The translations under genes were made by a program, and so were the position numbers. A stretch of DNA of 64,000 nucleotides from Patescibacteria group bacterium (GTDB lineage Bacteria > Patescibacteriota > Patescibacteriia > SG8-24), in assembly GCA_041667185.1 (NCBI GenBank), contig JBAYFM010000008.1, positions 1,714 to 65,713 on the forward strand, written 5' to 3'. The notes beneath the pieces were generated by a model. That model ran no database searches. It saw only the letters and a list, made by a program, of their open reading frames with translations, and had not been told where the DNA came from. Shown here piece after piece: positions 9,282 through 61,723 of this stretch (position 1 is the stretch's first letter; each line of letters begins with the position of its first letter).

Positions 9282-10262
9282 TCACTTCCACAGATCGATA
9301 CTGATCCGTTTCAGTACGCCGGCCGAAGGATAATTGTTGATGATGCCGCGCTTGGCGCCCATCTGTTGGATGACGCTGGAAGCGTTCCAGATACCGACGG
9401 CCAGGCCGTAGCGCAGGTCGTCTTTTTTCATCAGTCCGGCGACGAAACCCGAACCGAAAGCATCGCCAGCTCCTGTGACATTGAGGTGTTTGACGTTCAT
9501 GGCCGCGACGTGCCAGCTGTCTTTGTGGTTAGCTACGTAAGCGCCATTCTTGCCATCGGTGATCATGAGCGCCTGGCGCGGTAGGCCGCGGAGCGCGTCC
9601 CGGAGCGCGGCGATATCGCGATCGCGTCGTCCGGTGAGCAGCATCGCCTCCTCGACGTTCAGGTTGAAAACGTCGGTTTTGCGGATGAGCGGGGTCAGCC
9701 GGTCGAGGCCGTGCCGGAGTTCTTTGGTGCCGGGATTCCAGGCGACCTTGATGCCGTTCTTTTTGGCGAAGTTCAGTGTTTTTTCCATGAGCGCCAATTT
9801 GCCGCCGAGGGAGGTTATATAGAACCATTTGGCGCCGATGTACTGCCAAGGGATGAGTTTGGCCGAGATCATTTCCGAAGCGCCGCGATAGACAAGTACG
9901 GTCCGTTCGCCGGTGCCGGTCAGAATGATCGCTGAAAAAGCCGTCTGGTCGTCGCGATCGGTCTGCATGAAGCCGGTCGAGATCCGTTCCGAACGGAGCG
10001 TCTCGAGCACCGCCCGGCCGCCATCATCGTTGCCGACGGAACTCACGATCGCGGTGCTGTAGCCGAGGCGGCTGAAGGTCGTGGCCGCGTTAGTCGCGCC
10101 GCCGCCGGTCTCGAGCACCAGGTTGTTGATCTCGATCTTGGCGCCGAGCGGAAAGCAGCCCTCCATGGTGTGGGTCGCGTCGTCGCTCTCGATGATCTCG
10201 AGGGCGGAGCTTCTGATGAAGACATCGCGAGTGGCAGAGCCGAAAGTGATGACATCGTACAT
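9282..10262 (-). CDS. PfkB family carbohydrate/ribokinase-like kinase
   Basis: GGGATNAA N-terminal motif and C-terminal VTGAGDAFGSGFVAG (DTxGAGD). Start at MYDVITFGSATRD; the longer ORF N-terminus runs through a GGGAG-rich repeat and is rejected. Confidence 0.8.
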   Translation of the reverse strand: MYDVITFGSATRDVFIRSSALEIIESDDATHTMEGCFPLGAKIEINNLVLETGGGATNAATTFSRLGYSTAIVSSVGNDDGGRAVLETLRSERISTGFMQTDRDDQTAFSAIILTGTGERTVLVYRGASEMISAKLIPWQYIGAKWFYITSLGGKLALMEKTLNFAKKNGIKVAWNPGTKELRHGLDRLTPLIRKTDVFNLNVEEAMLLTGRRDRDIAALRDALRGLPRQALMITDGKNGAYVANHKDSWHVAAMNVKHLNVTGAGDAFGSGFVAGLMKKDDLRYGLAVGIWNASSVIQQMGAKRGIINNYPSAGVLKRISIDLWK

Positions 10263-10263
10263 A

Positions 10264-10340
10264 TGGTTGGAGTGGGGGAGTTGGGGAGTGGGGGAGTTGG
10301 GGAGACCGACTCTCCCGCACTTCTCCACTTCCGCACTCTC
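10264..10340. repeat. GGGAG-rich intergenic element (family instance a)
   Basis: GAGTGGGGGAGTTGGGGAG x2, then GACCGACTCTCCCGCACTTCTCCACTTCCGCACTCTC. On the mRNA strand it gives a pyrimidine-rich CTCCCCAACTCCC leader immediately 5' of the kinase start. Confidence 0.6.
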
Positions 10341-11289
10341 ATTTTTTCATCTTGCCAGCCCGGCCTTGGGAGCCGAACAGTTCCATTTTATGGCGCGCGA
10401 CTTCTTTCATCAGTTTTTTCGACGGCGCCAGGAGCGCGCGCGGGTCGATGGTCTTGTGGTTCAGCAGAACAGCCTCGCGCAGACCGGCGGTGAAAGCGAT
10501 GCGCAGGTCGGAATCGATGTTGATCTTCCTGATGCCGTTCGCTACCGCCCGGCTGATCTCGGAGTCCGGGATGCCGACAGCTCCGTCAAGCCGGTCGCAA
10601 TCTCCGAGTTCCGCGCAATGTTCTTTGGTCTTGGCGACCAGTTCCGGCGAGACGCCCGAGGCGCCGTGCAGGACGAGCGGAATTTTGACCAGTGCGTCGA
10701 TCTTTTTCAGCCGTTCGATGTCGAGTTCGGGCGCGATCTTGGATTTGAAAGCGCCGTGGGCCGTGCCGATGGAGATGGCCAGCGAATCACAGCCGGTCGC
10801 TCGGGCGAAGTCCGCGGCCTGTTGCGGGTCGGTGAAAAAAGCCTGTTTTTCCTCGACGCTGACCAGGTCTTCCACGCCTTTAATGGCGCCGATCTCCGCC
10901 TCGACCGAAACTTTTTTCTTTTTCGCCCAGGCGACGACCTGTTTCGTCTTGGCGACGTTCTCTTTATACGGCAGCAGCGAGCCATCGAACATCACGGAGG
11001 TATAACCGGCGGCGATCGCTTTTTTGATGAGCTTCAGGTCCTTGCCGTGGTCGAGGTGAATGGCGACCGGAACCGGCGTGGCGGCGGCGACCCGCATCAG
11101 AGCCAGAAGATAATCCAGGCCGGCGTATTCGATCGCGCCCTCGCTCGTCTGGATGATGACCGGAGATTTTTCCTCGACAGCCGCTTCGATGACCGCCTGC
11201 AGGATCTCCAGATTGTTGACGTTGAAAGCGCCGACGGCGTAGCAACCTTTATCGGCGGCGACCAGGATCTTTTTCGCGCTGCAGAGCAT
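10339..11289 (-). CDS. fba: class II fructose-1,6-bisphosphate aldolase
   Basis: Ketose-bisphosphate aldolase class II features: ...VIIQTSEGAIEY..., PVAIHLDHG, VMFDGS. Confidence 0.9.
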   Translation of the reverse strand: MLCSAKKILVAADKGCYAVGAFNVNNLEILQAVIEAAVEEKSPVIIQTSEGAIEYAGLDYLLALMRVAAATPVPVAIHLDHGKDLKLIKKAIAAGYTSVMFDGSLLPYKENVAKTKQVVAWAKKKKVSVEAEIGAIKGVEDLVSVEEKQAFFTDPQQAADFARATGCDSLAISIGTAHGAFKSKIAPELDIERLKKIDALVKIPLVLHGASGVSPELVAKTKEHCAELGDCDRLDGAVGIPDSEISRAVANGIRKINIDSDLRIAFTAGLREAVLLNHKTIDPRALLAPSKKLMKEVARHKMELFGSQGRAGKMKK

Positions 11290-11292
11290 AGG

Positions 11293-12252
11293 TCACTTTC
11301 TCTTGAGGGCTTTTAAGACGGCTTTTTTGATGCCCGCGGCATCGAGTCCGAATTTGGACCAGAGTTCTTGACCCGATCCGGATTCGCCGTAGCGGTCCTG
11401 TACGCCGACGAATTCGATCGGCGTCGGGAGTTCGCGTGCCAGGGTTTCGGCGACGGCCGAGCCCAGGCCGCCGATGATCTGGTGATCCTCGACCGTGACG
11501 ACGGCGCCGCATTTGGCGGCCGCGGCCACGACGGCTTTTTCGTCGAGCGGTTTGATGGTGTGGCTGTTCAGGACCAGGCAGCCGATGCCTTTTCGGGCGA
11601 GCGCGTCAGCCGCTTCGAGGGCGGCGGCGACCTGCGGGCCGCAGGCGATGATGGCACAGTCGCGGCCGTCGCGGAGCTGCCGGGCTTGGCCGATCCGGAA
11701 TTTCGAAGCCGCGGACGTGAAGACCGGCGATTTTTCCCGGCTGAGCCGGAGGTAGACCGGTCCGACATGTGTGGCCGCCGCGAGCGTCGCTTGCCGGGCT
11801 TCAACGGCGTCGGCGGGGACGATGACGGTCATGTTGGCGAGTACGCGCATCGTGGCGATGTCTTCGAGAGACTGGTGCGTGGCGCCGTCCGGTCCGGTCG
11901 CGAGCCCGGCGTGCGAGCCGACGATCTTCACGTTGGCGTTGTTGATGCAGATGTTGGTGCGGATCTGTTCCCAGGCGCGGCCGGGGGAGAAGGCGGCGTA
12001 GGCGGCGACGAACGGGATTTTGCCGCCGAGCGCCAAGCCGGCTCCGAGCGCGGCGAGCAGTTGTTCGTGGACGCCGAGCTGGACGAAACGCTCGGGGAAT
12101 TCTTTCTTGAAAGCCGCCATGCGCACCGAATCAGTGACGTCGGCGCAGAGGCCTATGATCTTCCGATCCTGGCGCGCGGCCAGAACCAGACCTTCGCCGA
12201 ATCCGTCGCGCGTGGCTTTCAGGACTTGTTCTTTTTTGGCTTGGGGTCTCAC
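11293..12252 (-). CDS. transketolase, C-terminal (pyrimidine-binding) subunit
   Basis: Split transketolase B subunit: ...AAYAAFS..., SHAGLATGPDGATHQ, VGVQDRYGESG. Confidence 0.85.
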   Translation of the reverse strand: MRPQAKKEQVLKATRDGFGEGLVLAARQDRKIIGLCADVTDSVRMAAFKKEFPERFVQLGVHEQLLAALGAGLALGGKIPFVAAYAAFSPGRAWEQIRTNICINNANVKIVGSHAGLATGPDGATHQSLEDIATMRVLANMTVIVPADAVEARQATLAAATHVGPVYLRLSREKSPVFTSAASKFRIGQARQLRDGRDCAIIACGPQVAAALEAADALARKGIGCLVLNSHTIKPLDEKAVVAAAAKCGAVVTVEDHQIIGGLGSAVAETLARELPTPIEFVGVQDRYGESGSGQELWSKFGLDAAGIKKAVLKALKRK

Positions 12253-12270
12253 AAAATGACCGGGTCAGCG

Positions 12271-13152
12271 TTAAATGAGGTCGGAACCAGGCTTGGGTTT
12301 GGCCTGGTAAGGCTTGGCGGCGTCTTTTCGGAGTTCCGCGAGCGCCTGGTCAGCCTGCTCGCACGTCGGCGTTTCGCCATGCCAGTGGAAATCATCCTCC
12401 ATGAAACTGACGCCCTTGCCGAGAGTCGTTCGGGCGATGATCGCCGTCGGACGCTGGCGCGAAGTTTTCGCTGTTTCCAGCGCTTGGATGATCGAAGGCA
12501 GATCATGTCCGTCAACGTCGATCACGTTCCAATTGAAAGCGAGGTATTTCTCACGGAGCGGTTCGAGGCGCATGATCGTTTCAGTTTCGCCATCAAGTTG
12601 GATGCGGTTGCGGTCGACCACGCAGATCAGGTTATTCAGATTGTTGGCGCCGGCGAAAAGCACGGCTTCCCAGTGCAGGCCGGCGTCGTGTTCGCCATCC
12701 GAGGTTAGGCACCAAGTCGTCCAGGTTTTGCGGTCCATTTTGGCAGCCAGCGCCAGGCCGGCGGCTTGCGCCAGGCCGGCTCCGAGAGGACCGGAGGTGC
12801 TTTCGAGCCCTGGCAAGCGTTCGCGTTCCGGATGCCCCTGCAGCCGCGAACCCAGGCGCCGCAGGGTCAGGAGCTCGCGTTCGGGAAAATAACCGGCCAG
12901 CGCCATGGCCGCGTAGCGCGCCGGGCAGATGTGGCCGTTCGAAAGTATCAGGCGGTCGCGGTCCGGCCAGTCCGGTTTTTTCGGATCGTGTTTCAGGATG
13001 TGAAAATACAGGGCCGCGAAAATATCGGCCATGCCCAGGGATCCGCCGGGGTGGCCAGAGCCAGCCTCAGCCAGCATAGAGATCACCAACTGGCGGATGC
13101 GGCTGGCTTTTTGGCTTAATTCGACGATTTTTTTTTGGTTGGGAGAAGCCAT
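12271..13152 (-). CDS. transketolase, N-terminal (TPP-binding) subunit
   Basis: GSGHPGGSLGMADI, LSNGH and GPLGAGL motifs of the transketolase TPP-binding domain. Confidence 0.85.
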   Translation of the reverse strand: MASPNQKKIVELSQKASRIRQLVISMLAEAGSGHPGGSLGMADIFAALYFHILKHDPKKPDWPDRDRLILSNGHICPARYAAMALAGYFPERELLTLRRLGSRLQGHPERERLPGLESTSGPLGAGLAQAAGLALAAKMDRKTWTTWCLTSDGEHDAGLHWEAVLFAGANNLNNLICVVDRNRIQLDGETETIMRLEPLREKYLAFNWNVIDVDGHDLPSIIQALETAKTSRQRPTAIIARTTLGKGVSFMEDDFHWHGETPTCEQADQALAELRKDAAKPYQAKPKPGSDLI

Positions 13153-13258
13153 AACGGCCTTAATGCCGCTTAAATTATATCATTTTTCAGCGTTGCGGTA
13201 TAGCCGCCGCGCGGGTACAAAAAATCCCGCCGAGGCGGGCGTCGCGATATTTTCCGGA

Positions 13259-13471
13259 TCAGTCGAACTTTTTCTTATGGATATGTTTGGCGAGTTCGGC
13301 CCGCAGGAGTTCGGCCTGCTTCTCGTCTTCGCCGAGGATCTTTTCGAACAAGGCGATGCAATCCGGACAGTCCATCTCTTTGGCGTCCGCGCAGTAATGT
13401 TTTTCGATGCGCCAAGTGTCGTCGAGTTTCTGCAGCAGCATCTTCACCAGGTTGTAGTTGGCGTTTTTCAT
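13259..13471 (-). CDS. small hypothetical protein with C..C pair (70 aa)
   Basis: MKNANYNLVKMLLQKLDDTWRIEKHYCADAKEMDCPDC... Sits between tkt and rpe in the same orientation. Confidence 0.4.
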   Translation of the reverse strand: MKNANYNLVKMLLQKLDDTWRIEKHYCADAKEMDCPDCIALFEKILGEDEKQAELLRAELAKHIHKKKFD

Positions 13472-14118
13472 AGCTTTTGATTTTCCTGGACGATCCGTTT
13501 CAGTTCGGCGAGAGCGGCCGCGGGATCCGGGCTGTTGGTGAGCGCATTGGCCGCGACCAGGCAGTCGGCTCCGGCTCGGATGAGTTTGGGGGCTGTTTCG
13601 AGATTGACGCCGCCGTCAATGGAAATATTCAGGGCCGGACGGATGACTTTCAGAGCTTCGATCTTGTCGAGCGTGATCGGCAACATGGTTTGGCCGCTGG
13701 CTCCGGGGTTTACGCCCATGATCAGGACGTTCTTGATCTTGTCGAGCATCGGCGTGATCCGCGAGAGCGGCGTGTCGGGGTTGATGGCGATGCCGACCTT
13801 GCCGGATTCCTTGTCAGCTGAGCGCAGGATCAGCTCCTCGCGTTCGGTCGCTTCGATATGGAAAAAGACCCGCGCGGCGCCGGCTGCGAGCCAGACAATG
13901 GCCATGTGTTCCGGGTTGTCGACCATGAGGTGTGCTTCGAACGGGATTCCTTTGAGCAATCCAGGGATCTTTTCCGGGTCGGCCCAGGTGGTGTTCGGCA
14001 CGAAGCGGCCGTCCATGACGTCGATTTGGACCATGACTCCGAGCGGGCGGATCTTTTCGATCTTGGCGATGAATTCTTCCTCGGTCCGGGCGAGGATGGC
14101 GGGAATCACTTGCGGCAT
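13468..14118 (-). CDS. rpe: ribulose-phosphate 3-epimerase
   Basis: MPQVIPAILART...QIDVMDGRFVPN... Start at M50 of ORF 13468-14265; overlaps the rpiB stop by 13 nt. Confidence 0.85.
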   Translation of the reverse strand: MPQVIPAILARTEEEFIAKIEKIRPLGVMVQIDVMDGRFVPNTTWADPEKIPGLLKGIPFEAHLMVDNPEHMAIVWLAAGAARVFFHIEATEREELILRSADKESGKVGIAINPDTPLSRITPMLDKIKNVLIMGVNPGASGQTMLPITLDKIEALKVIRPALNISIDGGVNLETAPKLIRAGADCLVAANALTNSPDPAAALAELKRIVQENQKL

Positions 14119-14594
14119 AAGCAACGGCCGCGTTGTTCGTAGTCGTGGATCTGTTTCAGACGCCGGCGATGGCGCGCGGAATCGGAGAAAGACGTCGCCA
14201 GCCAGAGTCTGATCAGGCGCAGCGCTGTCGAGACGCGACCGCTCGGCGTGCGGGCGCCGAGGCACATCACGTTGGCGTCGTTGTGTTCGCGGGAGAATTT
14301 GGCCGAGTAGGCGTCATAGACCAGGGCGCCGCGGATGCCGGCCACCTTGCTCGCGGCCAGGCATTCGCCGATGCCGCTGCCGCCGAAGAAGATGCCGACG
14401 CTCTTGCCGCGGGACTTCGCCACGGCTTCGGCCGCTGGGATGATGAAGTCGGGATAATCGCTCGGTTCAGCGGAAAAAGCGCCTAAGTCGCGCACTTCGT
14501 GGCCCTGGCCGCGCAAAAAAACCACGACCGCTTCCTTGAGCTTGAAGCCGGCATGATCGCTGGCGAGATAGATCGTTCGTTTTTTGGCGGCCAT
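14106..14594 (-). CDS. rpiB: ribose-5-phosphate isomerase B
   Basis: RpiB/LacAB family: IYLASDHAGFKLKE..., CLGARTP. Confidence 0.85.
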   Translation of the reverse strand: MAAKKRTIYLASDHAGFKLKEAVVVFLRGQGHEVRDLGAFSAEPSDYPDFIIPAAEAVAKSRGKSVGIFFGGSGIGECLAASKVAGIRGALVYDAYSAKFSREHNDANVMCLGARTPSGRVSTALRLIRLWLATSFSDSARHRRRLKQIHDYEQRGRCLCRK

Positions 14595-14737
14595 GTCGAT
14601 GAGTCTTTAGCTGCTTCTATATTATAATTCTATCATAATCAGCCCGGGCGCGTCATTAAGCCGGTCTGACGGTAAAATTAGGCGCGCCCCGTCCGATGGT
14701 TTACTTTTATCCGATATCTGCTTATAATTGGCTTCAT

Positions 14738-17700
14738 ATGGCGAAATTTCATCTACCATCGATCGAAGAGGAGCAACTGAAAAAATGGGACGAAAAAGAC
14801 GTTTTCCGCCAGGTCCTGAACAAGCCGGACCAGGGAAAGTCGTTCGTTTTTTTCGAGGGGCCGCCAACGGCCAACGGCAAGCCGGGCATTCATCATGTGC
14901 TCGCGCGGTCGTTCAAGGACGTCATCCTGCGTTTCCGCACCATGCAGGGACACAAGATCGACCGCAAGGCCGGCTGGGACACGCATGGCCTGCCGGTCGA
15001 ACTCGAGGTCGAGAAACAGCTCGGATTCACGCAGAAGAAACAGATCGAGGAGTTCGGCATCGCCAACTTCAACGCCAAGTGCAAGGAGTCGGTCTGGAAG
15101 TATCTCGACATCTGGCAGCAGATGACGAAGCGCATCGCGTTCTGGGTCGATCTCGAACATCCCTACATCACTTACACCAACGATTACATCGAGTCGCTCT
15201 GGTCGATCATCAAGGAGATCGATCGCAAGGGTTTGTTGTACCAAGGTTATCGCGTGACGCCGCACTGCCCGCGCTGCGTGACTTCGCTGTCATCGCACGA
15301 GTTGGCGCAGGGCTACAAGGATGTCGACGATCAGTCGGTCTACGTGAAGTTTCCGATCGATGCTGCGGCCAAGCGCTACTTCCTCGTCTGGACCACGACG
15401 CCGTGGACGCTGCCGGGCAATGACGCTCTCGCTGTCGGCGCGGCCGTGACCTATGCCGAGGTGAAGATGAAAGCGACGGGCGAGACCTATATTTTGGCTA
15501 AAGACAGGCTTGTCAGTCTCGACGGCGAGTACGATATCTTGTCGGAAAAGACCGGGGAGCAGCTGGTCGGCATCGCGTACCAGCCGCTTTATGACACCGC
15601 CAAGGCGTTCACCGCGGCCGCTGAATCTTCACGTCTCGCGAACGCCTACAAAGTTTATGCGGCTGGTTTCGTTTCGACGACCGACGGCACCGGCATCGTC
15701 CACATCGCGCCGGCGTTCGGCGAGGATGACGCGCGTCTGGGCGAAGCGGCCAAGCTGCCGACTCTGCTCACGGTCGATTCGACCGGCATGATGCTGGCCG
15801 AGGCTCCGGGCAAAGGCAGGTTCATCAAGAAGGCCGACGAGGACGTCAAAGCTGATCTCACCGCGCGCGGCCTGCTTTACAAATCCGAGACCTATCGCCA
15901 CGCCTACCCGTTCTGCTGGCGCTGCGGCACGCCGCTCCTGTATTACGCCAAGAATTCCTGGTACATCCGGATGTCCGAGTTGCGCGAGAAACTGCAACAG
16001 CACAACCAGGCGATCAACTGGGTCCCGGATCACATCCGCGACGGCCGTTTCGGCGAGTGGCTGCGCGAGGTCAAGGATTGGGCGCTGTCCCGTGAGCGTT
16101 ATTGGGGGACGCCGCTGCCGATCTGGCGCTGCGAGTCGTGTCAGGAACGCCTGACCATCGGCGGCATGGAAGAGATGAAGAAGCTCGCGCGTCCGGGCAA
16201 TACTTATTATCTGCAGCGCCACGGCGAGGCCGAGAATAACGTTGCGAACGTGGTGAGCTCGTATCCGGAGCTTAAAGAATGGCATCTGACGGCTCAGGGA
16301 CGCGAACAGGTCCAGGTTGCCGCCAAGGAATTGAAGCAGCATGGCATCGATCTGATTTTCGCCTCCGACCTGCTGCGCACCAAAGAGACCGCCGAGATCA
16401 TCGCCGCGGAGCTTGGCTTGCCGGTCGTTTATGATCCGCGCCTGCGCGAGCTTGGCGTCGGCGAGGCCAACGGCAAAACCATCGCGGAATTCCACGCGCA
16501 ATTCGCGAGCAAACTGGAACGTTTCGACAAGCCGGCCGTCGGCGGCGAGAATCTGCGCGACTGCCGCCGTCGCTTGGTCGCGTTCGTCAAAGAACTGGAA
16601 GCGAAATATTCCGGCCAGCGAATCCTGATCGTGAGCCACGGCGATCCGATCTGGATGCTGGATTCCGGATTCGGCGGCGCGAGCGACGAAGAGACATTGA
16701 CGTGGCGGTATAACGCCGTCGGCGCGTTCAGCGAGTTCCGGCCGGATGGCCTGCCGCGCGACGATCAGGGCCGCATCGATCTGCACCGCCCCTATGTCGA
16801 TGAGGCGGCGCTCGCGTGTCCCAAATGTTCTGGCGCCATGAAACGGTCGACCGAGGTTCTCGATTGCTGGTTCGACTCGGGCGCCATGCCGTTCGCGCAA
16901 TGGCACTACCCCTTCGAGAACGCCGAACGCATCGACCAGGGCCGGAATTTCCCAGCCGACTACATCTCCGAAGCCATCGATCAGACCCGCGGCTGGTTCT
17001 ACACCCTCCTCGCGGTCTCGACCCTGCTCGACAAGCCGACGCCGCCCTACAAGAACGTCATCTGCCTCGGCCACGTGCTCGATGCCAAAGGCCAGAAGAT
17101 GTCCAAGTCCAAGGGCAATGTCGTCGATCCCTGGCTGATGATCTCCAAGTACGGCGCCGACGCCATCCGTTATCATTTCTTCACCGTGAACCAGCCGGGC
17201 GAACCGAAATGTTTCGACGAGAAGTCGCTCGACGAGGTGACGAAGAAAGTTTTCCTGATCCTCTGGAACGTCCTGACTTTCTGGCAGATGTATGCCGGGG
17301 AGAAAGCGCGTGCGACCGACGCATCGCCGGCTTCGCAGAACGAACTCGACCGCTGGATCCTGGCGGAACTGGCCGAACTCGGCTCGCAGCTCACCGGACG
17401 ACTGGAGAGTTACCAGGTCGTCGACGCCTGCCGCAGCCTGGGCGACTTCATCAACAGCCTGTCCACCTGGTACCTGCGCCGCAGCCGCGACCGTTTCAAG
17501 GGCGAGCCGACGGAGCGCCAGGCAGCCGTAGAAACGCTGGGTTACGTGCTTTTGACGCTGTCTCGGCTCATGGCGCCGTTCACGCCGTTCTTGGCCGAGG
17601 CACTGTACGCCGAGGTTGGCGGGCCGCTGGCTTCGGTCCACTTGGACGCGTGGCCGACGCTGAAGTCGCTTGAAGACGCGACCTTGCGCACCAAGATGGA

Positions 17701-18187
17701 GTTCGTGCGCCAGGCCGCTTCGCTCGGACTCGAGAAGCGCGCTGTCGCCGGCATTCCGGTGCGCCAGGCACTCGCCAAAGCGACGGTCCGTTCGGTCCAG
17801 GTTTTCGACCAGTGGATGAAAGAGATCGTGGCCGTGGAACTCAACGTCGAAGCGGTCGAGTCCGAGGTGATCAAGGAGGCGAAAGATGCCGCGGTCGAAC
17901 TCGACACCAACATCACGCCGGAACTCCGCCGCAAAGGCGCGGTCCGCGAACTCGTCCGCAACATCAACGACCTGCGCAAGACCGCTGGACTCACGGTGCA
18001 TGATCGCATCGTCTTGAATTGGAATGCCACCGGCGAATTCTGGCCGCAGGTCTTTGCCGAACATCGCGAGAGCTTGCTCAAAGACGTGCTGGCCGCGGAT
18101 ATCGCGGTCGGTTCCTCTGGCGAACTCGGCAACCGCGAGCTCGAGGTCGCCGGCGAGAAGGTCTGGCTCGGCATCAATAAAGTCTGA
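14738..18187 (+). CDS. ileS: isoleucyl-tRNA synthetase (type 2) with an inserted histidine-phosphatase (PGAM-like) domain
   Basis: EGPPTANGKPGIHH (HIGH class I), KMSKSKGN, editing/CP1 region, Zn knuckles CESC...CPKC. About 190 aa between the knuckles (nt ~16195-16775) carry RHGEAE, SDLLRTKETA and IVSHGD motifs of the histidine phosphatase superfamily. Start at MAKFHLPS (14738), with TATAAT 8 nt upstream. Confidence 0.9.
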   Translation: MAKFHLPSIEEEQLKKWDEKDVFRQVLNKPDQGKSFVFFEGPPTANGKPGIHHVLARSFKDVILRFRTMQGHKIDRKAGWDTHGLPVELEVEKQLGFTQKKQIEEFGIANFNAKCKESVWKYLDIWQQMTKRIAFWVDLEHPYITYTNDYIESLWSIIKEIDRKGLLYQGYRVTPHCPRCVTSLSSHELAQGYKDVDDQSVYVKFPIDAAAKRYFLVWTTTPWTLPGNDALAVGAAVTYAEVKMKATGETYILAKDRLVSLDGEYDILSEKTGEQLVGIAYQPLYDTAKAFTAAAESSRLANAYKVYAAGFVSTTDGTGIVHIAPAFGEDDARLGEAAKLPTLLTVDSTGMMLAEAPGKGRFIKKADEDVKADLTARGLLYKSETYRHAYPFCWRCGTPLLYYAKNSWYIRMSELREKLQQHNQAINWVPDHIRDGRFGEWLREVKDWALSRERYWGTPLPIWRCESCQERLTIGGMEEMKKLARPGNTYYLQRHGEAENNVANVVSSYPELKEWHLTAQGREQVQVAAKELKQHGIDLIFASDLLRTKETAEIIAAELGLPVVYDPRLRELGVGEANGKTIAEFHAQFASKLERFDKPAVGGENLRDCRRRLVAFVKELEAKYSGQRILIVSHGDPIWMLDSGFGGASDEETLTWRYNAVGAFSEFRPDGLPRDDQGRIDLHRPYVDEAALACPKCSGAMKRSTEVLDCWFDSGAMPFAQWHYPFENAERIDQGRNFPADYISEAIDQTRGWFYTLLAVSTLLDKPTPPYKNVICLGHVLDAKGQKMSKSKGNVVDPWLMISKYGADAIRYHFFTVNQPGEPKCFDEKSLDEVTKKVFLILWNVLTFWQMYAGEKARATDASPASQNELDRWILAELAELGSQLTGRLESYQVVDACRSLGDFINSLSTWYLRRSRDRFKGEPTERQAAVETLGYVLLTLSRLMAPFTPFLAEALYAEVGGPLASVHLDAWPTLKSLEDATLRTKMEFVRQAASLGLEKRAVAGIPVRQALAKATVRSVQVFDQWMKEIVAVELNVEAVESEVIKEAKDAAVELDTNITPELRRKGAVRELVRNINDLRKTAGLTVHDRIVLNWNATGEFWPQVFAEHRESLLKDVLAADIAVGSSGELGNRELEVAGEKVWLGINKV

Positions 18188-18861: not shown

Positions 18862-19938
18862 TTGATTGTGCCGATGCTCGCTGCGCGCAATGAGGGATCC
18901 TGGGACGCTTTCGTTCAGGCGAACGGCGGATGTTTTCTGCAATCCTGGGGCTGGTCCAGGTTCCAGGAAGCCGCCGGCCGGACCGCTTTCCGCTATCAGA
19001 TCGCCGAGCCTTCGGCGACCGGTTCTCCCGACGATGGCGAAACCTCGGTCCAGTTCTTGGTGCTCCGCCACGCGCTGCCGCTGGGCGCGGCTTATGCTTA
19101 TGTTCCGCGCGGCCCAGTGCTAGCGCGTGAAGGCGTTTTCGATCTCGGTCGTTTCGGTTCGTTCGTCGGCGCCTTGCGCGAAGCGGCTCAGCGCGAAGGT
19201 TGCATCTTCGCCCGCGTCGAGCTGCCGTATCCGCAGACCGGCGGTCCGGTCAGTATTCCCGAACTGGAGAGTCTGGGTTTCCGTTACGCCAAGTCGCTCC
19301 AGCCAGCGGATACTTCTATCGTCGATCTTGATCTGAGCGAGGAGGAATTGCTCGCGGCCATGCATCCGAAGACGCGTTATAATATCCGTCTCGCCGCGAA
19401 ACACGGGGTCGAGGTGCGCGAGGCTGTTCATGAGAACGCTCATGTCTTTCGCCAGGAGGTCGGAACATTCTGGCGTCTGCTCGCCGAAACTTCGGAGCGC
19501 GACAAGTTCCACACCCACTCGCAGGCTTATTACGAGACCATGCTCGACGTCCTGTCGCCGAAAAAAGACGGCGGCCTCAAGGTGCGGCTGGTCTTCGCAT
19601 TATATAAAGGAGAGCCGGCCGCCGCGGCGATCGTCGCTGAATACGGCGATACCGTGACTTATCTGCACGGCGCCTCTTCCAGCCGGCTGCGCCAGTACAT
19701 GGCGCCGTACCTGCTGCACTGGAAGCTGATCCAGGAAGCCAAGGCCCGCGGATTCGCCAAATACGACTTTTGGGGCGTGGCGCCGACGGACGATCCGGAG
19801 CATCCCTGGGCCGGCATCACCCGGTTCAAGCGCGGCTTCGGCGGCCGTCGTGAGTCGTATCTGGGAGCCTGGGAGTTGCCGATAAGCGGACTTTGGTATA
19901 ATCTCTATCGGTTCGCGAAGAGATTCAAGAACGTTTGA
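18862..19938 (+). CDS. FemAB-family peptidoglycan interpeptide-bridge aminoacyltransferase (FemX-like)
   Basis: Methicillin-resistance FemAB family features: FLQSWGW, YLHGASS..., KRGFGG at C-terminus. Confidence 0.75.
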   Translation: MIVPMLAARNEGSWDAFVQANGGCFLQSWGWSRFQEAAGRTAFRYQIAEPSATGSPDDGETSVQFLVLRHALPLGAAYAYVPRGPVLAREGVFDLGRFGSFVGALREAAQREGCIFARVELPYPQTGGPVSIPELESLGFRYAKSLQPADTSIVDLDLSEEELLAAMHPKTRYNIRLAAKHGVEVREAVHENAHVFRQEVGTFWRLLAETSERDKFHTHSQAYYETMLDVLSPKKDGGLKVRLVFALYKGEPAAAAIVAEYGDTVTYLHGASSSRLRQYMAPYLLHWKLIQEAKARGFAKYDFWGVAPTDDPEHPWAGITRFKRGFGGRRESYLGAWELPISGLWYNLYRFAKRFKNV

Positions 19939-38818: not shown

Positions 38819-39371
38819 GTCAGGTCGACCGGATGATCGCCCCGCAGTACTGCGGGGAGGAAAGTCTGAACACCTCCCGCATTCATGCGGGAAAAGGGAC
38901 AATCGCTAACGGCGACCGGGAGCAAGCGTCGGAATTTCTTTTCAATAGCCAATTGGCGAAAGAAGTTTCGCGTCCAAGCCCAGGGAGAGTGCAACAGAAA
39001 ATACACCGCCTGCGCCCCGTGATGACGAGCGAAAGCGAGTCATTTTACGGGGCTAGAAGCGTCACCGGCGCAAGCTAGTGCCGACAAGGCAAGGTTGAAA
39101 TCGTGAGGTAAGAGCTCACGCGGGACTGCGGGGCGTGAGCCGTGAAAGCGGCTTTTACGCCCCCACGGACAAGAACCTTCGGGTTCCAATATCTGGCCGC
39201 GCGAGCGGCGCCGTGGAAAACCCTGTCCGGTGCAAGAGCAAGTTTGGTAGCTCGCAGGCCGCAGTCGCAAGGTTGCGGCCAAGGCCGCTGGCAACAGCGG
39301 TCGCAGAGAGATGATCATCGCCTCGCGGTCAAACGCGGGGTACAAAATTCGGCTTACAGGCCGGCCTGACA
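38819..39371 (+). ncRNA. rnpB: RNase P RNA (bacterial type A)
   Basis: GGAGGAAAGTC (P4 5' strand), GTTGAAATCGTGAGGTAAGAGCTCACGC (GGUAAGAGCGCACC-like P10-12 region), and ACAAAATTCGGCTTACAGG (P4 3' strand ACAGAAnnCGGCUUA). 5'/3' ends can pair as P1 (GTCAGG...CCTGAC). Confidence 0.8.
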
Positions 39372-39377
39372 AGAAAA

Positions 39378-56726: not shown

Positions 56727-56801
56727 TGGTCGGCCCGGATGGATTCGAACCATCGACCAACGCCTTATAAGAGCGCTGCTCTACCGCTGAGCTACGGGCC
56801 G
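56727..56801 (-). tRNA. tRNA-Ile (anticodon UAU)
   Basis: Reverse complement CGGCCCG-UA-GCUC-AGCGGUA-GAGC-A-GCGCU-CUUAUAA-GGCGU-UGGUC-GAUGG-UUCGAAU-CCAUC-CGGGCCG-A-CCA. Anticodon loop C-U-UAU-A-A. 75 nt. Confidence 0.75.
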
Positions 56802-61377: not shown

Positions 61378-61436
61378 GGGGAGTATAAACTGCGAGAATC
61401 AAAAACACCCCAGGGCAAGCCTGGGGTATTTTTGAT

Positions 61437-61610
61437 GGTGGGCGGCAGAGGAGTCGAACCTCTGACCTTCACAATGTCAATGTGACGCTCTAACGCCCAG
61501 TCCGGTCGTCTTGCGACCGGACACAAGAAATGCGCGGCGGCGGCCGCCACATCTGGCGTCAAGCCCGCCCTGGTCCCCGCGTTCGCGCGGGGCGGGCTTA
61601 ACCAACTGAG
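61437..61610 (-). pseudogene. partial tRNA-Val copy (D-loop to CCA) carrying a 105-nt family-1 element in the D-loop; no 5' acceptor strand
   Basis: In tRNA orientation: CTCAGTTGGTTA, family-1 element (plus-strand 61494-61598; AGCCCGCCCCGCGCGAACGCGGGGACCAGGGCGGGCT TGACGCCAGATGTGGCGGCCGCCGCCGCG...GTCCGGTCGCAAGACGACCGGAC), then TTAGAGCGTCACATTGACATTGTGAAGGTCAGAGGTTCGACTCCTCTGCCGCCCACCA, identical to the intact gene. Confidence 0.8.
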
Positions 61611-61646: not shown

Positions 61647-61723
61647 TGGTGGGCGGCAGAGGAGTCGAACCTCTGACCTTCACAATGTCAATGTGACGCT
61701 CTAACCAACTGAGCTAGCCGCCC
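61647..61723 (-). tRNA. tRNA-Val (anticodon GAC)
   Basis: Reverse complement GGGCGGC-UA-GCUC-AGUUGGUUA-GAGC-G-UCACA-UUGACAU-UGUGA-AGGUC-AGAGG-UUCGACU-CCUCU-GCCGCCC-A-CCA. Confidence 0.9.

What the first reader, a model, noticed from the sequence alone, without database searches (positions are those of the whole stretch)
14738..18187. Isoleucyl-tRNA synthetase with a histidine-phosphatase (RHG / PGAM-like) domain inserted in its zinc-knuckle region
Between the conserved WGTPLPIW...CESC and the DLHRPYVD...CPKC...DCWFDSG segments there are about 190 extra residues with RHGEAE, SDLLRTKETA and IVSHGD motifs. These are the catalytic signature of the histidine phosphatase superfamily. An aaRS carrying an intact-looking phosphatase domain is unusual. 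It could be a moonlighting or editing-related activity, or a domesticated insertion; no intein motifs are present.
Basis: partly seen in the sequence, partly recalled or inferred. Interest (0 to 1): 0.7.

Follow-up and report, generated by a model that had tools for sequence, protein, structure and literature searches.

The report
Isoleucyl-tRNA synthetase with embedded phosphatase
An essential protein-synthesis enzyme (isoleucyl-tRNA synthetase) of an ultra-small Patescibacteria bacterium carries a complete, apparently working phosphatase enzyme spliced into its catalytic core, and this pairing recurs in several independent forms across the group, which suggests an unrecognised link between phosphate removal and tRNA charging.

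Summary
Window 14738-18187 (+) is one uninterrupted 1149-aa type-2 IleRS. Residues 485-678 (nt 16190-16771) form a complete His_Phos_1 domain (Pfam E=9e-39) between the two CxxC halves of the CP3 zinc knuckle.

It is not an artefact, an intein or a relic:
- AlphaFold gives pLDDT 92 for the whole protein and 93-97 for the insert.
- The catalytic residues are invariant in all 119 insert-bearing homolog clusters.
- The insert's GC content matches the rest of the gene.

The case is one instance of a wider, apparently undescribed Patescibacteria pattern. The same phosphatase subfamily occurs in these arrangements:
- in IleRS at this site (71 of the best 80 genome loci);
- in IleRS at two other loops, or as two copies;
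- in ValRS at the two homologous loops, in up to four copies;
- fused to the C-terminus of ArgRS;
- fused to TsaC directly after ileS;
- as a separate gene wedged between argS and ileS.

The domain resembles PhoE, PspA and CobC phosphatases and does not look like a phosphoglycerate mutase.

Its substrate is unknown. My best reading is a tethered phosphomonoesterase that acts on something tied to aminoacylation, either a blocked tRNA 3' end or an adenine nucleotide. The main rival is an unrelated housekeeping phosphatase that is merely co-inherited with these genes.

The parts
14738..18187 (+). Complete ileS gene: type-2 (eukaryote-like) isoleucyl-tRNA synthetase of 1149 aa plus stop, with a nested phosphatase domain
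   Evidence: One continuous ORF. TIGR00392 scores 877 bits against a cutoff of 621. The AF2 model has pLDDT 92.4 and pTM 0.83 and superimposes on P. megaterium IleRS2 8c8u with TM 0.83 normalised to the target.
14885..14896 (+). Class I signature motif in its altered form GIHH (GxHH instead of HxGH)
   Evidence: Sequence read directly. G50, H52 and H53 are invariant in 70 relatives. GxHH is the mupirocin hyper-resistance motif of some IleRS2 enzymes (PMC10485003).
15389..15415 (+). CP1 editing-domain motif WTTTPWTLP
   Evidence: Sequence read directly. W218 to L225 are invariant in alignment A1. Isolated IleRS editing-domain structures (1wk8, 1wny) match aa 192-391.
16103..16141 (+). WGTPLPIW motif and the first CxxC (CESC, C465/C468) of the CP3 zinc knuckle, immediately upstream of the insert
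   Evidence: C465 is present in 119 of 120 homologs and C468 in 93 of 120. CP3 is assigned from the C. albicans IleRS domain table (CP3 = residues 473-534; PMC7191050) together with the alignment of query 484 to residue 499 of 6ldk.
16190..16771 (+). Inserted histidine-phosphatase (His_Phos_1, PhoE/PspA/CobC-like) domain, aa 485-678
   Evidence: Pfam E=9e-39. Boundaries come from the 8c8w alignment. The stand-alone AF2 model has pLDDT 94.7 and pTM 0.91. Foldseek gives TM about 0.8 to GpgP, PspA, PhoE and CobC. A profile search against PDB sequences gives PspA 6e-34 and PhoE about 5e-33.
16217..16225 (+). RHG motif: R494 and the predicted nucleophile H495
   Evidence: R and H are each present in 119 of 119 insert-bearing clusters. 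The motif aligns to the RHG of PhoE and PspA.
16376..16378 (+). R547, the second phosphate-binding arginine (in SDLLRTKETA)
   Evidence: Present in 119 of 119 insert-bearing clusters. Invariant in A1, A2 and A3.
16439..16450 (+). RLRE motif with E571, the predicted general acid
   Evidence: E in 113 of 120 clusters and D in 6. It aligns with the RLREI motif of PhoE. The assignment of that PhoE glutamate as the general acid is from memory.
16541..16573 (+). GGE(N/S)...R.R segment with E604 and R612, invariant family residues
   Evidence: E604 is present in 119 of 120 clusters and R612 in 118 of 120. Both are invariant in A1 and A2.
16634..16645 (+). SHGD motif with H634, the second catalytic histidine
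   Evidence: H634 is present in 119 of 119 insert-bearing clusters. It aligns to the (S/T)H(G/T) motif of PhoE and PspA.
16817..16882 (+). Second CxxC of the zinc knuckle (CPKC, C694/C697) followed by DCWFDSG, where the catalytic domain resumes
   Evidence: C694 and C697 are each present in 119 of 120 clusters, and D709 to G715 are essentially invariant.
16898..16954 (+). Loop aa 721-739. It is empty here. In other Patescibacteria IleRS (P0169, P0247, P0268, P0158) it hosts the phosphatase, and ValRS uses the homologous position (V2 type)
17096..17110 (+). KMSKS catalytic loop motif
   Evidence: Sequence read directly. K787 to S791 are invariant in A1.
17297..17341 (+). Coil aa 854-868 between the last long helix of the catalytic body and the anticodon-binding domain. 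It is empty here and is a third phosphatase insertion site in P0169, P0198 and P0247
   Evidence: DSSP of the AF2 model shows a coil between H828-853 and H869-890.
17348..18184 (+). Anticodon-binding domain (Anticodon_1, aa 871-1012) and the type-2 C-terminal domain (DUF5915, aa 1033-1149)
   Evidence: Pfam E=9e-28 and 4e-19 respectively.

Best explanation
**What it is.** The gene encodes a working type-2 IleRS. Its CP3 zinc-knuckle subdomain has been opened to hold a complete, catalytically competent phosphomonoesterase of the PhoE/PspA/CobC branch of the histidine-phosphatase superfamily.

**How it fits the wider pattern.** It is one form of a recurrent Patescibacteria partnership between class Ia synthetases and this phosphatase. 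The phosphatase is either translated from a gene wedged between argS and ileS, or built into IleRS, ValRS, ArgRS or TsaC.

**Proposed mechanism.**
- The phosphatase folds as an independent module, with both chain ends returning to the zinc knuckle. This step is shown.
- It keeps the standard chemistry: H495 attacks the phosphate, R494, R547 and H634 hold it, and E571 protonates the leaving group. This step is inferred from conservation and alignment.
- It removes a phosphomonoester from a molecule that would otherwise block or poison aminoacylation. This step is inferred from the repeated genomic coupling.
- It acts in cis when inserted and in trans when encoded by a separate gene.

**Favoured substrates**, in order:
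1. A 3'- or 2'-phosphorylated adenine nucleotide, or another nucleotide by-product or inhibitor.
2. A phosphorylated tRNA 3'-CCA end.

**Confidence by layer.**
- Real nested domain in a real IleRS: about 0.97.
- Catalytically active: about 0.85.
- Functionally coupled to aminoacylation rather than merely co-inherited: about 0.55.
- Any one named substrate: no more than 0.2.
For: **Structure and identity.**
- Continuous ORF, with Pfam and NCBIfam assignments for both parts.
- Clean boundaries against 8c8w.
- Confident AF2 models for the whole protein (pLDDT 92.4, pTM 0.83) and for the insert alone (pLDDT 94.7, pTM 0.91).
- Fold matches to IleRS2 for the whole protein and to PspA, PhoE, GpgP and CobC for the insert.

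**Selection on catalysis.**
- R494, H495, R547, E604 and H634 are invariant in all 119 insert-bearing clusters, and R612 is present in 118 of 120 rows. N501 and E571 are nearly invariant. The sequences go down to 47% identity.
- The R-H-(G/A)-N-R-E-R-H signature is kept in essentially every copy in every context, with rare degenerate exceptions.
- The insert evolves only moderately faster than the IleRS body. Mean pairwise identity is 0.375 against 0.479.

**Coupling to synthetases.**
- 71 of the best 80 GTDB loci are IleRS with the domain at the same site.
- In 7 of 9 loci where the phosphatase is free-standing, its gene abuts an insert-less ileS, from an 11-bp overlap to an 18-bp gap.
- Those free-standing loci share a conserved order: smpB, then argS, hp, ileS, recO. 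Inserted loci share the argS and recO neighbours.
- IleRS alternative sites and double copies sit on contigs of up to 1.06 Mb.
- An ArgRS::hp fusion lies in a collapsed copy of the same operon.
- An insert-less ileS is followed directly by tsaC::hp.
- 33 of 113 full-length ValRS relatives carry the domain at two loops homologous to the IleRS sites. The two domain lineages are only 26% identical to each other.
- ValRS loci with and without the insert are otherwise syntenic, and no free phosphatase gene lies nearby. Adjacency therefore cannot explain the ValRS cases.

**Precedent for the chemistry.** Phosphorylation of the tRNA 3' CCA end blocks aminoacylation (10.1101/2021.04.30.441581 and PMC11559606).
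Against: - No substrate evidence exists.
- The domain is dispensable for IleRS. P0104, nested in the window protein's own clade, has a 16-residue linker instead and no phosphatase gene within its 13-kb locus. ValRS relatives 84% identical over the N-terminal part lack the insert.
- For IleRS and ArgRS the coupling could be a by-product of an old gene adjacency.
- Overall domain charge is not consistently basic, with mean pI 7.75 and 5.3 in the window protein. This gives no support for direct RNA binding.
- No PADLOC defence model matches the domain.
- The NUDIX association is weak. There is one IleRS::NUDIX singleton and one operon gene, and NUDIX-box ORFs occur in 6 of 90 sequences scanned.
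- The backbone tree is a rough NJ tree and does not resolve which arrangement is ancestral.
Confidence: 0.55

Rival explanations
1. Co-inherited housekeeping phosphatase. The domain is an ordinary metabolic phosphatase, for example a phosphoserine or sugar-phosphate phosphatase. Its gene sat in a translation-gene operon (argS-hp-ileS) and was fused or inserted by local rearrangement in streamlined genomes. It keeps its own unrelated job, and the synthetase only supplies expression and stability.
For: - The free-standing gene lies between argS and ileS in most free-standing loci. This gives a simple route to the ArgRS C-terminal fusion and raises the chance of local rearrangements into ileS.
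- The closest characterised relatives are small-molecule phosphatases: PspA, PhoE, GpgP and CobC.
- The insert can be lost.
- In the window, ileS lies head-to-head with a pentose-phosphate and glycolysis operon.
Against: - ValRS carries the domain at the same two loops as IleRS. Two phosphatase lineages are involved, only 26% identical, and the loci have no free phosphatase gene nearby.
- In a lineage where the domain is fused to TsaC, that fusion gene still directly follows ileS.
- Up to four copies occur in one synthetase.
- Every non-free context found among the 150 best representatives is a tRNA- or adenylate-linked enzyme or a tandem double, and no metabolic partner was seen.
- A role as the glycolytic mutase is unlikely. 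The domain fails the dPGM cutoff (100.8 bits against 225), lacks a C-terminal tail, and the ValRS-insert genomes encode iPGM beside enolase.
Confidence: 0.25
2. Built-in protein phosphatase. The domain removes a phosphate placed on the synthetase itself, for example on the KMSKS-loop serine by a HipA/HipT-type toxin kinase, or on a partner protein. This would make the synthetase self-resetting.
For: - The hosts are class Ia synthetases with KMSKS loops.
- The two main insertion loops flank the DxWFDSG segment of the catalytic domain.
- From general knowledge, not tested here: some histidine-phosphatase superfamily members (SixA, PGAM5, Sts-1) act on proteins, and HipA and HipT phosphorylate GltX and TrpS.
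Against: - The domain has the PhoE-type cap segment (aa ~572-605, with two short helices in the model) that is typical of small-substrate enzymes. It is closest to small-molecule phosphatases.
- TsaC is not a class I synthetase.
- No kinase gene recurs in the neighbourhoods examined.
- No PADLOC match.
Confidence: 0.08
3. Non-catalytic structural or tRNA-binding appendage. The phosphatase fold has been domesticated as a spacer or binding module, in the way many eukaryotic synthetase appendages have been.
For: - CP3 is a structurally variable subdomain that tolerates different folds (PMC7191050).
- A few copies are degenerate: P0158 copy 1 has E to Q and R to Q, and some V1 ValRS copies read LVHS instead of RHG.
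Against: - The full catalytic set is invariant in all 119 IleRS clusters and in nearly all copies elsewhere. This is not expected of a purely structural module.
- Free-standing orthologs exist as separate enzymes.
Confidence: 0.07
4. Artefact or selfish element: an assembly chimera, a frameshift fusion of two genes, or an intein-like mobile insertion.
For: - The source is a metagenome-assembled contig.
- The domain appears at several sites in several genes, which superficially resembles mobility.
Against: - One continuous ORF.
- The identical protein is found on independent assemblies.
- The same junctions occur in 71 species-level genomes, including complete chromosomes.
- GC is 0.613 in the insert against 0.607 in the rest of the gene.
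- No Hint or intein family appears in the Pfam scan, and the junctions lack splicing residues.
- Copies within one protein are only 30-40% identical, so they are old and not assembly repeats.
Confidence: 0.01

Closest known systems
Bacterial type-2 IleRS (IleRS2), e.g. Priestia megaterium IleRS2 (PDB 8c8u, 8c8v, 8c8w) and Thermus thermophilus IleRS (1ILE)
   Same: - Same family and domain order: catalytic domain split by CP1/editing, CP2 and CP3, then the anticodon-binding domain and the type-2 C-terminal domains.
- TIGR00392 is passed. Sequence E-values are 1e-247 (8c8w) and 4e-225 (1ile), and the fold TM is 0.83.
- It shares the zinc-type CP3 described for T. thermophilus (PMC7191050).
- It shares the GxHH signature variant described for hyper-resistant IleRS2 (PMC10485003).
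   Different: - About 194 residues forming a phosphatase domain replace a linker of about 6-16 residues between the two CxxC halves of CP3.
- No solved or biochemically studied IleRS has an enzyme domain there.
- The two large IleRS surveys I read do not mention one.
PhoE (Geobacillus stearothermophilus broad-specificity phosphatase, 1h2e/1ebb), PspA (Hydrogenobacter phosphoserine phosphatase, 4ij5), GpgP (Rv2419c, 4pz9) and CobC (6nru)
   Same: - Same fold, with TM about 0.8 and rmsd 2.2-3.0 A.
- Same size class, about 190-210 aa.
- Same catalytic motifs in register: RHG, R, RLRE, and (S/T)H.
   Different: - Only 24-27% identical.
- It fails every curated NCBIfam cutoff: PspA 66.7 against 350, CobC 78.6 against 162.9, GpmB 65.5 against 261, and dPGM_arch 100.8 against 225.
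- It has family-specific conserved positions, for example SHGDP and N488.
- It is nested in, or genetically tied to, a synthetase rather than being a free metabolic enzyme.
Bifunctional RNase H / acid phosphatase (NCBIfam NF005567, the M. tuberculosis Rv2228c type)
   Same: A PhoE/CobC-like histidine phosphatase domain is fused to a nucleic-acid enzyme. The insert matches the phosphatase half with E=2e-25.
   Different: - It scores 89.8 bits against a cutoff of 326, so it is not a member.
- In that family the fusion is end-to-end, not nested.
- The partner is RNase H, not a synthetase.
IleRS with an N-acetyltransferase domain (NCBIfam NF040702, ileS_w_GNAT)
   Same: It is a precedent, curated by NCBI, for an IleRS that carries an extra enzyme domain.
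   Different: - The extra domain is a different enzyme (GNAT).
- The window protein scores 288 bits against a cutoff of 1999.
- I found no paper describing that family, and I did not establish where its GNAT domain sits.
HD phosphohydrolase domain of bacterial CCA-adding enzymes (functional analogy only, from general knowledge)
   Same: A tRNA 3'-end enzyme carries its own phosphatase or phosphodiesterase module that can clear 2',3'-cyclic or 2'/3'-phosphate ends. This is the kind of job proposed here. A CCA-adding enzyme with an HD domain lies near ileS-tsaC::hp in L085.
   Different: The fold and chemistry are unrelated (a metal-dependent HD domain against a phosphohistidine mechanism). No evidence yet shows that the Patescibacteria domain touches tRNA.

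Membership tests
Isoleucyl-tRNA synthetase, type 2 (TIGR00392 / IleRS2) | Whole-protein score above the curated equivalog cutoff | tested here: met
   877.1 bits against a cutoff of 621.4. The next best family models are the MupA and MupB type-2 models at about 768 bits, with valS far lower at 408.
Isoleucyl-tRNA synthetase, type 2 (TIGR00392 / IleRS2) | Class I catalytic signature motifs (HxGH or its GxHH variant, and KMSKS) | tested here: met
   GIHH at aa 50-53 and KMSKS at aa 787-791. Both are invariant in 70 relatives. GxHH is documented as a functional IleRS2 variant (PMC10485003).
Isoleucyl-tRNA synthetase, type 2 (TIGR00392 / IleRS2) | CP1 editing domain present | tested here: met
   Isolated IleRS editing-domain structures match aa 192-391 at E=2e-34. 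The WTTTPWTLP motif is invariant.
Isoleucyl-tRNA synthetase, type 2 (TIGR00392 / IleRS2) | Type-2 C-terminal organisation (Anticodon_1 plus DUF5915/ARD domains, no C-terminal treble-clef zinc domain) | tested here: met
   Pfam Anticodon_1 at aa 871-1012 and DUF5915 at aa 1033-1149. The whole-model fold match is best to IleRS2 8c8u.
Isoleucyl-tRNA synthetase, type 2 (TIGR00392 / IleRS2) | Isoleucine-specific aminoacylation of tRNA-Ile | not testable with these tools
   This needs an enzyme assay. No second ileS is present in the 64-kb window.
Histidine phosphatase superfamily, branch 1 (Pfam PF00300) | Score above the Pfam gathering threshold | tested here: met
   133.6 bits against 21.7, E=9e-39, covering profile positions 2-170 of 194.
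Histidine phosphatase superfamily, branch 1 (Pfam PF00300) | Catalytic core: the RHG histidine nucleophile, two arginines, a second histidine and an acidic proton donor, in register with solved members | tested here: met
   R494, H495, R547, E571 and H634 align to the corresponding motifs of PhoE and PspA. They are invariant or nearly so across 119 clusters.
Histidine phosphatase superfamily, branch 1 (Pfam PF00300) | Alpha/beta fold of the family | tested here: met
   The AF2 model has pLDDT 94.7. Foldseek gives probability 1.00 and TM 0.78-0.83 to 4ij6, 4pz9, 1h2e and 6nru.
Histidine phosphatase superfamily, branch 1 (Pfam PF00300) | Phosphatase activity through a phosphohistidine intermediate | not testable with these tools
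   This needs biochemistry on wild type against an H495A mutant.
Cofactor-dependent phosphoglycerate mutase (dPGM) | Score above the curated dPGM model cutoffs, with a full-length match that includes the C-terminal tail | tested here: not met
   dPGM_arch scores 100.8 bits against 225, and the other dPGM models score 34-66 bits against 261-320. Canonical ~250-aa dPGM chains such as 1qhf and 1bq3 align only over profile positions 7-110. The domain's C-terminus returns to IleRS, so there is no tail.
PspA-type phosphoserine phosphatase / CobC alpha-ribazole phosphatase / SixA | Score above the curated equivalog cutoffs | tested here: not met
   PspA 66.7 against 350, CobC TIGR03162 78.6 against 162.9, and PRK15004 55.7 against 250. 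SixA was not listed among the 25 best of 34 matching families for the window protein.
Intein / Hint-domain insertion | Hint domain, plus a nucleophile at the N-junction and His-Asn followed by Cys/Ser/Thr at the C-junction | tested here: not met
   No Hint or intein family appears in the Pfam scan. The junctions read ...KKLA|RPGN... and ...DDQG|RIDL....

The most novel reading that the evidence does not exclude
The embedded phosphatase is a tRNA 3'-end healing activity. While the tRNA acceptor end is held by the synthetase, the phosphatase removes a 3'- or 2'-phosphate, which may be the remnant of a 2',3'-cyclic phosphate or of a toxSAS-type 3'-pyrophosphate. The synthetase, or the CCA-adding enzyme followed by the synthetase, can then recharge the tRNA. 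On this reading, Patescibacteria class Ia synthetases would carry a built-in repair or counter-toxin function, evolved several times in IleRS, ValRS and ArgRS. This is not excluded by any result here, and it is not directly supported by any.
Probability: 0.15. Interest if true: 0.9.

Novelty: new variant of a known kind. Interest (0 to 1): 0.75.

Why it matters
Aminoacyl-tRNA synthetases are among the best-studied enzymes. Their extra domains are normally editing, RNA-binding or protein-interaction modules. A complete phosphomonoesterase nested in the catalytic domain has not been described in any paper I could find.

Three features make it more than a curiosity:
- It is under clear purifying selection.
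- It has been acquired repeatedly at homologous loops of two paralogous synthetases.
- Where it is not fused, it is kept next to ileS.

Together these features suggest that some phosphorylated molecule interferes with, or feeds into, tRNA charging in Patescibacteria. This is a huge, uncultivated, host-dependent bacterial group whose translation apparatus is already known to be unusual.

The question is directly testable, because the protein, an H495A mutant and a natural insert-less relative (P0104) define a clean experiment.

There is also a practical consequence. NCBI labels most of these proteins only as 'class I tRNA ligase family protein', so IleRS and ValRS may be scored as missing or uncertain in Patescibacteria genome annotations and metabolic reconstructions.

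Tried and rejected
**Explanations considered and rejected.**
1. **Frameshift or chimera.** Rejected because the ORF is continuous, the identical protein appears on other assemblies, and the junctions are conserved.
2. **Intein.** Rejected because there is no Hint domain and no splicing residues.
3. **Recent horizontal insertion.** Rejected because GC and GC3 match the gene, and the insert co-diverges with the backbone at r=0.49.
4. **Glycolytic dPGM.** Rejected on model cutoffs, the truncated PDB alignments, the missing tail, and the presence of iPGM genes in ValRS-insert genomes.
5. **Adjacency as the full explanation.** It fits ArgRS and perhaps IleRS, but it fails for ValRS. The syntenic loci L090 and L091 differ only by the insert and have no free phosphatase gene.

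**Leads that gave nothing useful.**
6. **NUDIX as an obligate partner.** One IleRS::NUDIX protein (L074) and one operon gene (L081) looked promising. The fusion is a singleton among 120 homologs, and NUDIX-box ORFs occur in only 6 of 90 sequences scanned.
7. **Defence-system membership.** No PADLOC hit for the phosphatase.
8. **Basic surface as a sign of RNA binding.** Domain pI is variable, and the domain is acidic in the window protein.
9. **Direction of evolution (free gene first or insert first).** The NJ tree scatters the free-gene state and does not resolve it.

**Technical dead ends.**
10. Model coordinates were not exposed, so inter-site distances could not be measured.
11. The 18-sequence insert alignment was too diverse for the genome scan and had to be reduced to 5 sequences.
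12. The afdb50 fold library was unavailable.

**Literature.** Six searches for prior descriptions found nothing on this architecture. Neither did targeted reading of three IleRS papers.

Full report

Yes. The + strand carries one open reading frame from 14696 to 18187 with no internal stop. Homologs begin at the ATG at 14738. This gives a 1149-aa protein identical to a database entry from a 'Patescibacteria group bacterium' assembly.

- Pfam finds the class I synthetase catalytic family split in two, with His_Phos_1 (PF00300) between the halves at aa 491-657. The match is E=9e-39, 133.6 bits against a threshold of 21.7. Anticodon_1 and DUF5915 follow.
- NCBIfam's isoleucine--tRNA ligase equivalog is passed, at 877 bits against a cutoff of 621. 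The next best models are the type-2 MupA and MupB models.
- Against the solved type-2 enzyme of Priestia megaterium (8c8w), residues 13-484 align to 17-478 and residues 679-1042 align to 485-849. About 194 residues (aa 485-678, nt 16190-16771) therefore stand where the reference has about 6.

**2. Is it an artefact, an intein or a decaying relic?**

No to all three.

- The insert's GC content is 0.613 against 0.607 for the rest of the gene.
- No Hint or intein family is detected, and the junctions (…KKLA|RPGN… and …DDQG|RIDL…) lack splicing residues.
- AlphaFold2 with a 70-sequence alignment gives mean pLDDT 92.4 and pTM 0.83 for the whole protein, with 93-97 across the insert.
- The insert modelled alone gives pLDDT 94.7 and pTM 0.91.
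- The whole model superimposes on IleRS2 structures, with TM 0.83 to 8c8u normalised to the target.
- The insert superimposes on the ~200-residue phosphatases GpgP/Rv2419c, PspA, PhoE and CobC, with TM about 0.8 and rmsd 2.2-3.0 A.

Conservation points the same way. Among the 120 best homolog clusters, 119 carry the domain, at identities down to 47%. In all 119, R494, H495, R547, E604 and H634 are invariant, and R612 is present in 118 of the 120 rows. N501 and E571 are nearly invariant. The zinc-knuckle cysteines C465, C694 and C697 are kept.

A profile of the domain aligned to PhoE and PspA puts RHG, the second arginine, the RLRE glutamate and the (S/T)H histidine in register with those enzymes' motifs. 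The assignment of the PhoE glutamate as the general acid is from memory.

The insert evolves somewhat faster than the synthetase body, with mean pairwise identity 0.375 against 0.479 over 91 proteins. It is still clearly constrained.

**3. Where exactly is it?**

The insert lies between the two CxxC halves of a zinc knuckle. This knuckle follows WGTPLPIW and precedes DxWFDSG.

In the domain table for C. albicans IleRS, CP3 is residues 473-534. [quoted passage not shown] Query residue 484 aligns to residue 499 of that protein (6ldk).

The insert therefore sits inside a zinc-type CP3, a subdomain already known to be structurally plastic.

**4. What kind of phosphatase is it?**

By sequence profile the best solved relatives are:
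- PspA phosphoserine phosphatase, 6e-34;
- PhoE broad-specificity phosphatase, about 5e-33;
- CobC, 3e-27.

Canonical ~250-residue mutases such as 1qhf and 1bq3 align only over the first ~110 profile positions.

The domain fails every curated subfamily cutoff: dPGM_arch 100.8 against 225, PspA 66.7 against 350, CobC 78.6 against 162.9, and RNase H/acid phosphatase 89.8 against 326. It has no C-terminal tail, because its chain returns to IleRS.

I conclude that it is a distinct subfamily of the phosphatase branch, not a phosphoglycerate mutase. Its substrate cannot be read from sequence.

**5. The wider pattern.**

An exhaustive search of 1.84 billion representative proteins with the insert alone gave 2845 hits at E<1e-10. 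I classified the flanks of the best 150.

- About 85 hits are IleRS, full-length or contig-truncated, and nearly all have the domain at this same site.
- About 50 hits are free-standing proteins of 185-212 aa at 35-51% identity.

The remaining hits are informative:
- **IleRS with two tandem copies at the standard site:** P0250 and P0258.
- **IleRS with copies at other loops.** The loops are at ~aa 721-739 and ~aa 854-866 in window numbering. Some of these proteins also have the standard copy (P0158, P0198) and some lack it (P0169, P0247, P0268). The P0169 cluster has six members, on contigs of up to 1.06 Mb.
- **An ArgRS with the domain at its C-terminus:** P0146.
- **Two TsaC (Sua5/YrdC) proteins with the domain at their C-terminus:** P0213 and P0238.
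- **Two ValRS:** P0263 and P0124, the latter with four copies.

Essentially every copy in every context keeps the catalytic signature. The rare exceptions look degenerate.

**6. Genome context.**

A scan of GTDB species-representative genomes found at least 524 loci encoding relatives. Of the best 80, 71 are IleRS with the insert at the standard site and 9 are free-standing genes.

The informative record titles name only Patescibacteria lineages: Jorgensen-, Terry-, Doudna-, Colwell-, Lipton-, Wolfe-, Nomura-, Nealson-, Yonath-, Yanofsky- and Taylor-bacteria, Paceibacter and Parcubacteria. One is a complete 689-kb chromosome. The protein search adds Uhr- and Komeili-bacteria. Generic labels such as 'uncultured Gammaproteobacteria' look like submitter placeholders, which I could not verify.

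- In 7 of 9 free-standing loci (8 of the 9 scan loci plus L081 found from P0133; the ninth scan locus was not examined), the phosphatase gene abuts an insert-less ileS, from an 11-bp overlap to an 18-bp gap. One locus ends too early to tell, and one has a 1.5-kb gap.
- These loci share the order smpB(-), then argS, phosphatase, ileS, recO.
- Loci with the inserted form often keep argS upstream (46 of 71) and recO downstream (29 of 71), without the intervening gene.
- The ArgRS fusion sits in a collapsed copy of the same operon: smpB, then argS::hp, then recO.
- The TsaC fusion directly follows an insert-less ileS with a stop/start overlap, near a CCA-adding enzyme gene and a tRNA-guanine transglycosylase gene.

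**7. ValRS shows parallel evolution.**

Among 113 full-length relatives of the ValRS hit, 33 carry the domain. The named ones are Magasanik- and Moran-bacteria, on contigs of up to 914 kb. JGI even labels one 'valyl-tRNA synthetase/broad specificity phosphatase PhoE'. Relatives 84% identical over the N-terminal part lack the domain.

There are two ValRS sites:
- **V1** lies between two Cys pairs before DTLDTWFSSG. This is homologous to the IleRS CP3 site.
- **V2** lies after WFSSG…TLGWP and before HPTSxxETGYDI. This is homologous to the IleRS loop at 721-739.

V1 and V2 domains are only 26% identical to each other. V2 shares the RHGEAENN motif of the IleRS type (33% identity), whereas V1 has the RHGETDWN motif. 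I read this as at least two separate captures.

Two loci with identical synteny differ only by the presence of the V2 insert. The order is enolase, iPGM, iPGM, an unannotated gene, DHH(-), then valS, tyrS, argS. L091 also has one extra small ORF after valS. Neither locus has a free phosphatase gene. Gene adjacency therefore cannot explain the ValRS cases. These genomes also have their own cofactor-independent mutase.

**8. Gain, loss and direction.**

P0104 has a 16-residue linker in place of the insert. It nests within the window protein's own clade in a rough NJ tree and shares the window's rpiB-then-ileS arrangement. It has no phosphatase gene in its 13-kb locus.

The insert is therefore dispensable for the IleRS fold and can be lost.

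The multi-copy and alternative-site IleRS forms cluster in one clade. The free-gene state is scattered across the tree. The tree is too crude to say which arrangement is ancestral.

**9. Mechanism.**

Three things are shown:
- The domain is an independently folding, complete histidine-phosphatase module in a permissive surface subdomain of an otherwise intact IleRS.
- There is strong selection on its catalytic residues.
- It has repeated, independent genetic coupling to class Ia synthetases.

Two things are inferred:
- The domain is an active phosphomonoesterase.
- Its substrate is connected with aminoacylation.

My preferred candidates are a phosphorylated adenine nucleotide or similar small molecule, and a phosphorylated tRNA 3' end. 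The second has a clear precedent for why it would matter. toxSAS enzymes pyrophosphorylate the CCA end and thereby prevent aminoacylation (10.1101/2021.04.30.441581 and PMC11559606).

Nothing here shows contact with tRNA:
- I could not obtain model coordinates to check the geometry.
- Overall domain charge is not consistently basic.
- No defence-system model matches the domain.

The main rival is an unrelated housekeeping phosphatase that is co-inherited with translation genes. It remains viable at about 0.25. It explains the IleRS and ArgRS cases reasonably well. It explains the ValRS parallelism, the TsaC arrangement and the multi-copy forms poorly.

**10. Novelty.**

Six full-text searches found no description of a synthetase with a histidine-phosphatase domain. 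Targeted reading of three IleRS papers found none either. One of these is a 2026 preprint that annotated about 109,000 bacterial IleRS sequences.

The library is incomplete because it excludes subscription journals, so prior mention cannot be ruled out. The domain combination is visible in precomputed Pfam annotations and in one JGI product name, so it is 'known' to databases but apparently not studied.

I class it as a new variant of a known kind: a synthetase with an accessory domain, where the accessory is unusually a complete second enzyme nested in the catalytic core.

**11. Caveats.**

- All sequences are from metagenome assemblies.
- The lists shown are best-N samples, not censuses.
- Site homology between IleRS and ValRS rests on flanking motifs, not on superposed structures.
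- The tree is neighbour-joining with midpoint rooting.
- The functional statements are inference.

Noticed in passing
window 14885-14896 (+): The IleRS class I signature motif reads GIHH (GxHH) instead of HxGH. G50, H52 and H53 are invariant in 70 relatives. This swapped motif is the one reported to give some IleRS2 enzymes mupirocin hyper-resistance (PMC10485003), so the whole clade may be intrinsically hyper-resistant.
   Followed up: partly
window 56727-56801 (-): A tRNA-Ile gene has the anticodon UAU. This is rare in bacteria and implies that AUA is decoded without the usual lysidine-modified CAU tRNA. It may be relevant to how this IleRS recognises its tRNAs.
   Followed up: no
window 38821-39372 (+): A bacterial class A RNase P RNA matches end to end (148 bits) but spans 552 nt for a 367-position model. 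It must therefore contain large insertions.
   Followed up: no
window 61436-61511 and 61647-61723 (-): Two tRNA-Val(GAC) genes lie about 135 nt apart. The first scores only 30.7 bits against the Rfam tRNA model, just above the threshold of 29.
   Followed up: no
window ~9300-14594 (-), read via locus L088: A pentose-phosphate and glycolysis operon lies head-to-head with ileS. Its genes are rpiB, rpe, a small ORF, a split transketolase (separate N-terminal and C-terminal genes), fructose-bisphosphate aldolase and a PfkB kinase. A FemAB-family (aminoacyl-tRNA-using) gene lies two genes downstream of ileS at 18862-19938.
   Followed up: partly
L074 8057-11503: An IleRS carries a NUDIX hydrolase domain (aa 327-452, Pfam E=6e-18) inserted in the CP1 region, while the phosphatase is a free gene upstream. 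It is a singleton among its 120 best homologs. In L081 a free NUDIX gene lies between argS and the phosphatase gene. NUDIX-box ORFs were found in only 6 of 90 sequences scanned (89 loci plus the window).
   Followed up: partly
L084 707-1762 (-): A Fic-domain gene sits between rpiB and the insert-less ileS of P0104, the close relative that has lost the phosphatase insert.
   Followed up: no
P0342, P0323, P0359 (ValRS V1 inserts); P0158 copy 1 (IleRS): Some copies have lost catalytic residues. Examples are LVHS or VHAT in place of RHG, and E to Q with R to Q. A minority of the embedded domains are therefore probably inactive.
   Followed up: partly
L090 and L091 (valS loci): These loci have a valS-tyrS-argS synthetase gene cluster and two adjacent iPGM genes next to enolase. 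In L091 one iPGM gene appears shortened, and a gap of about 800 nt follows it.
   Followed up: no
Database names: NCBI names most insert-bearing IleRS and ValRS proteins only 'class I tRNA ligase family protein' or 'hypothetical protein'. The insert seems to defeat automatic naming, which could make these essential genes look absent in Patescibacteria annotations.
   Followed up: no
L081 7387-8004 and 11505-12011: Two conserved-position operon genes have no family assignment. One is a 205-aa protein with a hydrophobic N-terminus, between the NUDIX gene and the phosphatase gene. The other is a proline-rich 168-aa protein between ileS and recO.
   Followed up: partly
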